Source of the DNA: Octopus vulgaris
Lineage: Eukaryota
DNA length: 64,000 bases
Direction of reading: 5' to 3'
NCBI GenBank assembly: GCA_951406725.2
Contig: OX597818.1
Span: forward strand, 40,920,001 to 40,984,000
Shown one piece after another: positions 6,270 through 33,795 of this stretch. How positions within the stretch are numbered: the first letter of the stretch is position 1; every line of letters begins with the position of its first letter. The notes under the pieces were generated by a model. The model saw nothing but the letters and a program-made list of their open reading frames with translations, was not told where the DNA came from and did not search any database. The translations under genes were made by a program, and so were the position numbers.

Positions 6270-7169
6270 GAGATAGAGAGAGAGAGAGATAGATAGAGAG
6301 AGCGATTAGTGGTACAATTTAGACGAGATTAATAGTGATTTTCCATGAGCAGTATTAAAGAATAAGTATCCGGACAATGCTTTACAGAGTTCATAAACGA
6401 AAGGAACTGTACCTCAAATGGAAGCTGTGGGAGAGAAAGGATGATGGTGAAATCGTTTTGCTTTAAAATATTTAAAGATATACGGTTTATTCCCGATGTT
6501 ATAGGAAAAAAATGGTGTAAACAACTGAAGTGAATTTAATAACTTGGGCCGAAGTATGTTATATAGCATTTGGAATGAAAATTAATTACACTTATATAAA
6601 TTGGTATTCATTTGGCCTTGTCACCTCTAATCACATATATAATCATTAAAACTTATGACTAGTGGGGCGAGGATTTTGTCCTTTCAGGGTCAATGAAATA
6701 AGTTCCAGTGTTGTACTGGGGCCGATGTAATCATCTTCCCCCTCTCTTCTGAAACTTCTAGCCTTGAGCCAAAATTTGAAACCGTTAATATCAATGACTA
6801 TATGAGGTTTTTTTTATTATTTTTATTTAACTAAAATCAAACTGTAGCTTGTTCTTAACTAAAATACTGGAAAGCAATAATTATTCAAGTATGGATAAGA
6901 AACATAGTTACCTTTTCCTGATTAACTTTCGAAGCTAAAAACGCAAGAATGTTCTGCATCATAATAGGAAAACTGAACTTCAATAATAGTGGAAATAGGG
7001 GTTGTGTACGCAGCGGGGGTCAGTTTTCCCCGTCATTTTACATTCAAAAATGTGCTCATAGAGGTTTATAAGCCACCCTCGATACCAGCCTAAATCACAC
7101 GGATCTCTGCTTCATAGATCTTAGCTTCATGGACCTAGCTACGAAAATCCATTTCTAAGAAACTTAACA

Positions 7170-7231
7170 TCTAGTGGTTAGGATTCCTGGCTTTCACCCA
7201 GGCGGCCCGGGTTCGATTCCCGGCATGGGAA
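7170..7231 (+). pseudogene. 5'-truncated tRNA-Glu(TTC) pseudogene
   Basis: D-arm remnant TCTAGTGGTTAGGAT, anticodon arm CCTGG-CTTTCAC-CCAGG (TTC at 7193-7195), T arm CCGGG-TTCGATT-CCCGG, 3' acceptor strand CATGGGA-A, then a T7 terminator. The roughly 10 nt carrying the 5' acceptor strand are absent. Confidence 0.85.
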
Positions 7232-30128: not shown

Positions 30129-30290
30129 ATGTTGAGTCATTTTGATAGGTGTTTCCGAATGCTGTTTCAGCTGCTTGTCCCTTGTATAGCGTTTGTAATT
30201 AAGATATATTTTTATTCTTCAGGTAAAATTCATAGCACATAAATTACAACTACTACCATTTTACAACACTATTAGCTGTAATCAAACTAA

Positions 30291-30308
30291 ATAATAATAA
30301 TAATAATA

Positions 30309-30374
<66 letters not shown>

Positions 30375-30376
30375 CG

Positions 30377-30430
<54 letters not shown>
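30291..30430. repeat. (AAT)n microsatellite just upstream of the 30473 acceptor
   Basis: Direct reading. Confidence 0.99.
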
Positions 30431-30473
30431 TCACATTAACTACTTTAACAATCTCGTTTCTTCTGCTCTTCAG

Positions 30474-30566
30474 GGGGTCCGGGACACAATGAGAGTGACC
30501 TTGCTGCAACTGATCTAATAGCGGGACCCCTGATTGGCTGAAGAAAACGAGGACAGTAGCCACTCG
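30474..30566 (+). other. Candidate non-coding 5' exon of the VAChT/ChAT locus (alternative end at 30570)
   Basis: Acceptor TTTCTTCTGCTCTTCAG ends at 30473. Overlapping donors CG|GTGAGT (30567) and GA|GTAAGT (30571). GC-rich relative to flanks, with stops in all three frames, and about 0.6 kb upstream of the VAChT ATG. Confidence 0.5.
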
Positions 30567-31177
30567 GTGAGTAAGTTCGGTTGGCAAGTCAACAGAAGAG
30601 GACGAATATATTTCGTTAACCATTTCCATTTCAAATCATCTTAACCAAATACCACACAAGGCGAAAGTCTTCCTTGTGTACTGTACCCATACCAATAAAA
30701 GACATTAATAATAAACACGGGTATTTAAGGAACGTGTCAATACTCTCATACACAGTTCTGGAATTTTGACTCGTTAAAAAATGTAAATAAATATTAATAA
30801 ACATATGTTCTTGTGTCTGAACACTTAACACATAGAATTGTTCAAATAGAAAGAACTGTAAAATCAGCGAAGATCTGATAAACTGAGAAATTATCGAACA
30901 ACGGTAATGCATGCAGGATATTTATTGATTCCATTATGAAGTGGTCCCTAACAACGGAAATTTCACACGGAAACTAATGTCCATCATATTTGGAAAATAT
31001 CAAACTTAATTAATGATGACAGAAACTGTATTGATAAAATCAAAGGAAAATGTGCAGTTGTAAATAATTAAGGAAAGTGCTGTTGCTTATCTTATTGAAT
31101 TCATATAATATAAATTTACGAACTATTTTGCTAGCTATTACGATTGTTGTTTTAACACACACAAGAAATATAACGAA

Positions 31178-33007
31178 ATGGCGTCGCTTACTCAGGTACG
31201 CGATAAAATCTTTGAAATGATGGACAGGGCTGGTACTTACATACATGAGCCGACACATCAGCGCCGCTTAGTCTTAATCATTGTCTGTGTTGCTTTACTG
31301 CTGGACAACATGCTTTACATGGTCATTGTTCCAATTATACCAAATTATCTTCGAAATACATTTTCTCATGAATCTATGACAACGACAGTTAAGGCACCTA
31401 TTAAGTACAATCGCATCTATCGCAATGTAACCGGGGCTCCTAACACAACATCCTGGTATACAGTTGTTAGTGAAACGACGACATCTATACCACCGCCTCC
31501 CATCGATTATGGTAGCGAAGGAGGGGCAATAGGCTTCTTATTTGCTTCAAAAGCTATCCTTCAGTTAATGGTCAACCCCTTTACAGGGGCTTTGATTGAT
31601 CGAATAGGTTACGATATGCCAATGATGATTGGTTTGATTATTATATTTCTATCAACCGCTGTATTTGCATTTGGAGAAAGCTATGGTGTGCTTTTTATGG
31701 CCAGGAGTCTGCAGGGATTGGGATCGGCTTTCGCCGATACATCAGGTTTGGCTATGATTGCTGATCGATACACGGAAGAATCCGAACGTAGTAGGGCTCT
31801 TGGCATTGCTTTGGCCTTTATATCATTTGGTTGTTTAGTGGCTCCACCATTTGGTGGTATTCTTTACGAATTTGCTGGTAAAGTGGTGCCGTTCTTATTT
31901 TTGGCAACCATGTCGCTTATCGATGGTTTTCTCTTACTTCTCGTTATGAAACCAGTGAGAGCTCAAAGATCCAAAATTCCAGAGGACCAGCGAGTGAAGG
32001 GAACTCCTATTTACAAACTCCTCATGGACCCTTACATCGCTAATTGTGCCGGTGCTTTAGCAATGGCTAATGTTTCGTTGGCTTTCCTCGAGCCCACGAT
32101 CTCACTCTGGATGAAAGATACGATGGACGCTAGTGAATGGGAAATGGGCTTCATTTGGTTGCCCGCTTTCGTACCGCACATCGTTGGAGTTTATGTAACT
32201 GTAAAATTTGCTGAAAGACGTCCAAATAAACTGTGGGTTCTCGCTGCAGCAGGACTTGCTTTAGAAGGGGTTTCTTGCTTTTTCATCCCCTTCGCTACTA
32301 CTTTCACTTTTCTTATGTTTCCAATCGCCGGTATTTGCTTCGGTATAGCTTGTGTAGACACGGCACTTTTGCCAACTCTTGGATATCTAGTCGACACTCG
32401 ACATGTATCCGTCTACGGTAGCGTTTATGCTATTGCTGACATATCTTATTCTTTGGCTTATGCTATCGGACCAATAGTTGCCGGTGGAATCGTCCATTCG
32501 ATTGGTTTCTTAGCTCTCAATATTTTAATTTGTATCAGCAATGTCCTTTATGCCCCAGCCCTATTTTATCTAAACAAAGCTTATGCTTATAAACCATTTG
32601 AGAATGAAGAGATGAAAACTCCTGTCACAGAGGACCGCAGCTTCTATAATACTAGTGACACACAGTCCCAACAAAACTATGCTAGTTACGGTGGGGCCAG
32701 TGATAAAGTTGAAGCTGATCAAAAGCTAAATCTAGAAATGGGTAAACCTTCCCAAGCATGGGATCCACCCGCAGACCATGGCTACCATAGTAGTGAGAGT
32801 CGTTACAATACTAGTATCGGCACTGATAAAAGAAGCACATATAATAACACTGGTGGAAGTAATTATACTCAGAGCAGTGGAACTGGTTACAATCCTACCG
32901 GAAGCAGTTATAATAACAGCGGAAACCGTTATGGTGGTGGAAATTATAACAATGAGACAAGTCAGAGATTTGGTGACGATAAATATAACAGATGGGAACA
33001 ACCTTAA
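31178..33007 (+). CDS. SLC18A3: Vesicular acetylcholine transporter (VAChT, SLC18 family MFS), intronless, 609 aa
   Basis: Uninterrupted 609-codon ORF with about 12 hydrophobic segments. VAChT-type motifs: [131 protein letters not shown]. Luminal loop has NVT and NTT sequons. Intronless coding is typical of VAChT and not of VMAT. Confidence 0.97.
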
Positions 33008-33562
33008 GATCGATGCATACGTGCACAGACATGTACGTATATATCAATATACAAATACATACATTCATATACACACATAAGCAGCCATAGATATGATGAT
33101 ATTCATTTATATATGATATGTATATATATAGATAGGAACAGATTTACATATTTGTATGAGTAAAAATATTCTAATTATCTTAGAGCTAAACTTGACAGAA
33201 GAACAATATTCATAATACTCGAACATTAGAGAAGAAAGAAAAATTGCTGAAATTGAATAGGAGTAACAAGTATGAAGGCAGGTATTTAGTGCGCATGTCA
33301 TTGAATCAGAGTGAAGACTTAAAGATAGCTATTTGCATTTCACATAAGATTTTCAGTAACATTTCCTCGGTAACTCATTATTAAATTGAGGCTTTTGAAC
33401 GTCACGTAGACGCAACACAACAGTTGTTAAATAGGACTAATTTTAAAATGGTGCAGTAAATTTATCGCAAGCAAAGGTAATATAGATTTCTGATTATCTG
33501 TAGAAATACAGTTAAATTATAATTGATTTAACATAAATACCGGTTAATTCGTCCGGGAATTT

Positions 33563-33568
33563 AATAAA
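33563..33568 (+). terminator. First AATAAA noticed downstream of the VAChT stop (possible proximal polyA signal)
   Basis: Hexamer about 555 nt after the stop. The background is AT-rich, so a chance occurrence is likely. Confidence 0.25.
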
Positions 33569-33685
33569 ACAAATATGGTAACAGTATCAAGTGTTGAGGT
33601 GAACCACTTCCTAACGTATTAGGATAACTACATTAGAATGCATGAGATTAACAGCGAATTAAGCATAAACTACTGCCATCTTAGC

Positions 33686-33795
<110 letters not shown>

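What the first reader, a model, noticed from the sequence alone, without database searches (positions are those of the whole stretch)
30470..30576. Hairpin-masked splice acceptor, tandem donors and a uORF in one small exon: a candidate VAChT/ChAT switch
Seen: TCAGGGGGTCC (30470-30480), which includes the acceptor CAG, can pair with GGACCCCTGA (30524-30533), giving 10 bp, 7 of them G-C, with one bulge in otherwise AT-rich DNA. The exon contains uORF MRVTLLQLI* (30489-30518) and ends in overlapping consensus donors GTGAGTAAGT. Known: stem-loop-forming complementary sequences regulate splicing at the C. elegans cholinergic locus. Inference: reading through the donors would give VAChT mRNA, using them (or skipping the masked exon) would give ChAT mRNA, and RNA structure would set the ratio. 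I know of no description of this in cephalopods.
Basis: partly seen in the sequence, partly recalled or inferred. Interest (0 to 1): 0.75.

Follow-up and report, generated by a model that had tools for sequence, protein, structure and literature searches.

The report
Hairpin over octopus VAChT splice acceptor
In an octopus, the splice site used to make the acetylcholine-transporter message is predicted to fold into a long hairpin, which likely lets some transcripts skip it and become the message for the acetylcholine-making enzyme, as reported for roundworms.

Summary
Position 30474 is the entry acceptor of the VAChT terminal exon. In 5 of 5 RNA-type runs (4 studies) the contig joins it to an exon 78 kb upstream and runs unbroken through the 'donors' at 30566/30570. 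ChAT's start-codon exon lies 186 kb downstream. Contig break points in 3 of 5 runs imply that the upstream exon also splices to a second acceptor, probably ChAT's; that junction was not read directly. The hairpin is larger than reported: 24 predicted pairs (30453-30480 with 30524-30551) cover the pyrimidine tract and the AG. Only 18 of 20,000 shuffles did as well, and it is the strongest of 104 acceptor-like sites. Similar pairing appears at 3 of 5 VAChT entry acceptors of other invertebrates and at 0 of 27 coding acceptors, in a post-hoc test. Covariation could not be tested. The uORF is one of 10 upstream AUGs. Best reading: an ordinary cholinergic gene locus with a candidate acceptor-masking hairpin of the kind reported in C. 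elegans.

The parts
30436..30449 (+). two TTAAC branch-point-like motifs, just outside the predicted stem
   Evidence: sequence; function inferred
30453..30480 (+). 5' arm of predicted hairpin: polypyrimidine tract, CAG and first 7 exon bases
   Evidence: folds; shuffle tests
30472..30473 (+). AG of the VAChT entry acceptor; closes a 78,102-nt intron from an exon ending at G000:C5:40872371 (outside the window)
   Evidence: contig loose ends; placed
30474..31177 (+). 5' UTR part of the VAChT terminal exon (704 nt, 10 upstream AUGs)
   Evidence: unbroken contigs in 5 of 5 RNA-type runs
30489..30518 (+). uORF MRVTLLQLI*, first AUG of this exon, between the two arms
   Evidence: translation not tested
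30524..30551 (+). 3' arm of predicted hairpin, including a purine-rich GAAGAAAACGAG stretch
30567..30576 (+). overlapping donor-like sites GTGAGT / GTAAGT; no use seen
   Evidence: read through; G|GTRAGT occurs 4 times on this strand of the window
31178..33007 (+). intronless VAChT (SLC18A3-like) coding sequence, 609 aa
   Evidence: (534 bits to VAChT structures against 361 to VMAT)
33008..33710 (+). VAChT 3' UTR, at least this far in the longest contigs; poly(A) site not determined
   Evidence: arithmetic on record lengths

Best explanation
Position 30474 is the used splice acceptor of the VAChT terminal exon, and a predicted 24-pair hairpin over its pyrimidine tract and AG likely weakens it, so that part of the transcripts from an upstream, probably shared exon would skip VAChT and splice to ChAT instead. 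Shown: the upstream exon joins 30474 across 78 kb; the donor-like sites are read through; ChAT's start-codon exon lies 186 kb further on. Inferred: the same upstream exon also joins the ChAT exon directly (264-kb intron). Inferred: the 3' arm is transcribed about 50-80 nt after the AG, so the stem could close before U2AF binds. An open acceptor would give VAChT mRNA; a closed one would leave the upstream donor waiting for ChAT's acceptor. The ratio-setting role is untested.
For: Junction to 30474 in 5 of 5 RNA-type runs from 4 studies, plus one unlabelled run; upstream exon unique in the genome with a GT donor. In 3 of 5 runs (X1, X6, X9; 2 studies) the contig starts exactly 30 letters before 30474, which in a 31-mer assembly graph means a second path leaves the upstream exon with a letter other than G; ChAT's predicted first coding exon starts with A. 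Hairpin: 18 of 20,000 shuffles as good, against z -1.4 to +1.3 for 8 ChAT acceptors; top of 104 acceptor-like sites; with the core kept and only the tract shuffled, 18 of 1,500 as good. Intron-exon pairing z <= -1.8 at this acceptor and 3 of 5 other invertebrate VAChT entry acceptors, 0 of 27 coding acceptors, 1 of 20 decoy sites. Same layout in C. elegans and ticks; 5' splicing elements needed for both transcripts in C. elegans.
Against: The acceptor is used efficiently (contig depth 18-132), so masking is at most partial. The upstream-exon-to-ChAT junction was not read; 2 of 5 runs show no branch. Whole-fragment z is only -1.77 and the second pairing test gives only z -1.86, 48 of 1,000, for this site. 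No covariation: the one diverged relative covers only 16 nt of one arm, unchanged, which has probability 0.53 by chance. The cross-taxon test was designed after seeing the folds; 4 of the 5 other acceptors are predicted, not validated; two lie in CT/GA-repeat-rich DNA; the controls are almost all coding exons, not 5' UTR exons. No second, long-range complementary pair was found in 6 comparisons.
Confidence: 0.48

Rival explanations
1. Same gene layout, but the hairpin is a by-product. A pyrimidine tract followed by a purine-rich exonic enhancer and a G-run pairs on paper; the VAChT/ChAT ratio is set by proteins, by 3' end cleavage or by separate promoters.
For: The 3' arm contains GAAGAA, an enhancer-like word (recalled, from no call). 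The acceptor works well. Whole-fragment z -1.77. AG paired as often in 30% of shuffles. No covariation data.
Against: Trinucleotide-preserving and tract-only shuffles still leave about 0.1-1%. Top of 104 sites. Recurrence at other VAChT entry acceptors.
Confidence: 0.29
2. One reading: a minority of transcripts use the acceptor and then the donor at 30566 or 30570, splicing on to ChAT (adding a uORF, no coding sequence) or to a later acceptor in the VAChT leader.
For: A near-consensus G|GTGAGT lies 93 nt after a used acceptor; such sites occur only 4 times on this strand of 64 kb. It is unchanged in the one diverged relative. Contigs drop rare forms.
Against: No joint, break or loose end there in 5 of 5 RNA-type runs, one at depth 132. 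The branch that is seen lies at the end of the upstream exon. The segment does not encode ChAT's conserved N-terminus.
Confidence: 0.11
3. The duplex acts through ADAR: binding would block U2AF, or editing of the A in the acceptor AG would remove the site and commit that transcript to ChAT.
For: The acceptor A is paired in the stem. A review describes ADAR binding to duplexes between GA-rich exon sequence and the upstream tract that impede U2AF65 at human RELL2 exon 3 (PMC7404189, passages). Extensive A-to-I editing in cephalopod neurons is recalled, from no call.
Against: No A>G difference between 30474 and 30631 in 5 RNA-type contigs, which show majority letters only. The helix is short and interrupted.
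Confidence: 0.07
4. The structure matters after splicing: the remaining stem and the uORF damp VAChT translation.
For: Part of the stem still forms in the spliced leader. The uORF has A at -3 and is the first AUG of this exon.
Against: Most of the 24 pairs use intron bases that are absent from the mRNA. Nine more AUGs follow, and 13.3 are expected by chance.
Confidence: 0.05

Closest known systems
Cholinergic gene locus (VAChT inside the first intron of ChAT), C. elegans unc-17/cha-1 and Ixodes (PMC3875643 and PMC7524744, passages read)
   Same: VAChT nested on the same strand between an upstream non-coding exon and the ChAT coding exons; whole VAChT ORF in one exon as in ticks.
   Different: Scale: 78 kb to the VAChT acceptor and 264 kb to the ChAT acceptor. 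Sharing of the upstream exon is inferred here, not read.
Complementary sequence elements of the C. elegans cholinergic locus (Mathews et al. 2015, Genetics 199:729; text not held, content recalled; one citing passage read in PMC13299628)
   Same: A complementary pair at the proximal VAChT acceptor that would favour the distal acceptor.
   Different: As recalled, the worm has two pairs, tested by mutation, and the paper reports candidates in other phyla. Here one local pair is predicted, no second pair was found and nothing is tested.
Tract-to-GA-rich-exon duplex at human RELL2 exon 3 (as reviewed in PMC7404189, passages)
   Same: Same geometry: purine-rich exon bases pair with the upstream pyrimidine tract.
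   Different: A cassette exon with shown ADAR dependence; here an alternative terminal exon choosing between two genes, with no ADAR evidence.

Membership tests
Cholinergic gene locus | True VAChT gene | tested here: met
   525-534 bits to VAChT structures, at most 361 to VMAT
Cholinergic gene locus | True ChAT gene downstream on the same strand | tested here: met
   (76 bits ChAT against 33 CrAT)
Cholinergic gene locus | VAChT spliced from an upstream non-coding exon | tested here: met
Cholinergic gene locus | The same upstream exon is shared with ChAT mRNA | tested here: inconclusive
   branch signature in 3 of 5 runs fits; junction not read
C. elegans-type complementary-element control | Complementary pair at the proximal acceptor | tested here: met
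   predicted helix
C. elegans-type complementary-element control | Second complementary pair (recalled feature) | tested here: inconclusive
   none in 6 short blastn comparisons of limited stretches; most of the 264 kb not examined
C. elegans-type complementary-element control | Pairing conserved rather than sequence (covariation) | tested here: inconclusive
   one search does not cover the 5' arm in a diverged relative; one search gives a post-hoc cross-taxon hint
C. elegans-type complementary-element control | Pairing needed for distal splicing | not testable with these tools
   needs a minigene or genome edit
Composite (internal/terminal) exon | Internal donor used in mRNA | tested here: not met
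   0 of 5 RNA-type runs; contigs can miss rare forms

The most novel reading that the evidence does not exclude
Burying the VAChT entry acceptor in a local hairpin is an ancient, sequence-independent rule of the cholinergic locus from crustaceans to cephalopods. In octopus it holds a splice decision open across 186 kb of further transcription, and ADAR binding or editing of the paired AG tunes how much acetylcholine is made versus packaged.
Probability: 0.1. Interest if true: 0.8.

Novelty: new member of a known kind. Interest (0 to 1): 0.45.

Why it matters
Cholinergic neurons need both products of one pre-mRNA, and how their ratio is set is called open in PMC3875643 (passage). This locus gives a compact, mutable 100-nt candidate element in an animal where the distal acceptor is 186 kb away, so skipping the first acceptor is a real kinetic problem. 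It also locates ChAT's first two coding exons, which the listed octopus ChAT proteins lack.

Tried and rejected
Repeat or mobile-element origin of the segment: one genomic match only (that search skips common words). Structured RNA family: only a tRNA-like hit at 7169-7223 in the window. Segment as ChAT's first coding exon, including a non-AUG start: dropped once the conserved molluscan N-terminus mapped 186 kb downstream. Promoter reading (CCAAT-like word at 30531-30541): dropped because mRNA contigs extend 5' into the upstream exon. No RNA holder is on record as RNA; the runs are treated as RNA because their contigs cross a 78-kb intron. Covariation: relatives' contigs begin at 30536 and 30540, or carry no differences; uncovered parts are no evidence. 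The 96 unchanged bases at 30536-30631 in X19 are not special: unchanged stretches of 96 and 132 nt occur elsewhere in the leader. Metagenome scan: 20 VAChT loci, none above 71% identity, no DNA similarity to the segment. First pairing test (arm -25..+7) flagged 1 of the 5 other entry acceptors and one unrelated site; the geometry was then changed. L026/L027 gave no clear entry acceptor and were left out; one internal acceptor was too near a contig end. Protein searches with the second ChAT coding exon found nothing useful. The repeat finder was swamped by (TA)n. Mathews 2015 could not be read.

Full report
Observation. The stem has 10 pairs, 7 of them G-C, with one bulged G. Folding shows it is the inner part of a longer helix, 30453-30480 with 30524-30551, 24 pairs including one G-U. 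This helix covers the pyrimidine tract and the AG, while two branch-point-like TTAAC motifs lie just outside. It forms in 5 of 5 sequence contexts and at both 37 and 18 C.

Is it chance? With the acceptor arm (-25..+7) fixed, 18 of 20,000 dinucleotide shuffles of the downstream sequence pair as well (z -4.0); 8 ChAT acceptors score between -1.4 and +1.3. Trinucleotide shuffles give 2 of 1,500, and shuffling only the tract gives 18 and 14 of 1,500. It is the strongest of 104 acceptor-like sites in the window and 18 own-genome loci. Against this, the whole 161-nt fragment has z -1.77, the AG alone is paired as often in 30% of 300 shuffles, and the site was chosen because it looked paired. The segment itself is 55% G+C.

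The locus. An intronless 609-aa ORF at 31178-33007 is VAChT. ChAT exons follow on the same strand outside the window, at G000:C5:41.14-41.52 Mb. One exon is 98% identical to an Octopus bimaculoides ChAT, hence 'an octopus'. Molluscan ChATs share an N-terminus. It does not map to the window but to an exon at C5:41136627-41136920, 186,153 nt after the acceptor studied here; that exon's acceptor is predicted from sequence. So the 93/97-nt segment codes for neither protein.

Transcripts. Five RNA-type runs of the 14 listed as holders were laid on the region; the label is a guess by the tool. Each gave one contig that aligns from 30472 onward and carries a loose 5' end. That end matches one place in the genome, an exon ending at C5:40872371 with a GT donor, 78,102 nt upstream. 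The acceptor is therefore used. An unlabelled run, X20, shows the same join. All five contigs pass 30566 and 30570 with no joint, break or loose end, one at depth 132. Contigs drop rare forms, so minor use is not excluded.

Route to ChAT. In X1, X6 and X9 the contig begins exactly 30 letters before 30474. In a 31-mer assembly graph this is what a fork at the end of the upstream exon produces, and the other branch must start with a letter other than G. That excludes the retained intron, which starts with G, and fits ChAT's first coding exon, which starts with A. X3 and X8 show no fork. This is an inference: I spent the last read-laying run on relatives and did not read the ChAT junction.

Donors and uORF. 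G|GTGAGT is a good donor on paper, and only 4 such sites occur on this strand of the window, so its place 93 nt after a used acceptor is notable. It may help define the acceptor across the long intron (inference) or serve a rare isoform. The uORF is one of 10 upstream AUGs in the 704-nt leader, with 13.3 expected.

Conservation. The only diverged relative (X19, 38 differences and 1 gap over 30536-31700) begins inside the 3' arm; its 16 covered arm bases are unchanged, which is uninformative. Twenty other invertebrate VAChT loci were fetched. Five had a usable entry acceptor: L034, validated by transcript L025, and L019, L023, L029, L032, predicted. In an intron-against-exon pairing test, z was -1.86 (this site), -2.02, -3.22, -3.87, -1.29 and -0.20, against -1.46 to +1.84 for 27 acceptors of coding exons and one value below -1.8 among 20 decoy sites (rank test p 0.0002 and 0.004). 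Taking the nearest site for L019 changes -0.20 to -2.19. The test was designed after seeing the folds, the controls are unmatched, and two loci are repeat-rich, so this is a lead only.

Mechanism. Most likely the upstream exon's donor faces two acceptors. The near one is used to make VAChT mRNA; when the hairpin closes over it, the donor would wait for ChAT's acceptor 264 kb away. Shown: the near junction, the read-through, the positions. Inferred: the far junction and any role of the hairpin. Rivals: by-product pairing (0.29), minor composite exon (0.11), ADAR-dependent masking (0.07), translational damping (0.05).

What is known. The nested layout with a shared first exon is described for C. 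elegans (PMC3875643, one passage), ticks (PMC7524744, passages) and insects (bioRxiv 2021.03.29.437568, first of four parts), and called conserved in PMC8197147 and PMC4769160 (passages). Splicing elements near the 5' end of unc-17 are cited in PMC13299628 (passage). Mathews 2015 itself was not held; that it describes two complementary pairs and candidates in other phyla is recalled, and its supplement may already list a mollusc. PMC9815951 (passages) uses vacht and chat as octopus markers, with nothing on locus structure in the passages shown. PMC12724666 (passages) added nothing on splicing of this locus. PMC7404189 (passages) gives the RELL2 precedent. Searches listed no description of the cephalopod locus or this hairpin; two searches returned none; the library lacks most subscription papers.

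Verdict. A real, used acceptor under a hairpin that is unlikely by chance, in an ordinary cholinergic gene locus. The three-part 'small exon switch' reduces to one candidate element. New member of a known kind; interest 0.45.

Noticed in passing
G000:C5:41136627-41136920 (L039:1288-1581) and C5:41215044-41215235 (L007:1486-1677): ChAT's first two coding exons; the 5 octopus ChAT proteins of the cluster all lack this N-terminus.
   Followed up: partly
L034:142-210: A 20-plus-pair hairpin encloses the transcript-validated VAChT entry acceptor of a crustacean-like contig, with the AG near the loop.
   Followed up: partly
L023 around 3740 and L032 around 3691: Predicted VAChT entry acceptors whose CT-rich tracts pair with GA-rich exon starts.
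   Followed up: partly
window 30285-30430 and 33666-33795: The VAChT exon is bracketed by two long (AAT)n runs in the same orientation; the longest contigs end in the second.
   Followed up: no
window 32700-33007: VAChT ends in a long low-complexity tail rich in Y, N, G, S and T, beyond the part that matches solved structures.
   Followed up: no
window 30536-30540: Contigs of two non-RNA runs both end inside the 3' arm at low depth; probably coverage.
   Followed up: no
window 7169-7223: Partial tRNA-like Rfam match, possibly the head of a SINE.
   Followed up: no
window 31640 and 32534: A>G differences in several RNA-type contigs within the VAChT ORF; alleles or editing, not separable here.
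   Followed up: no
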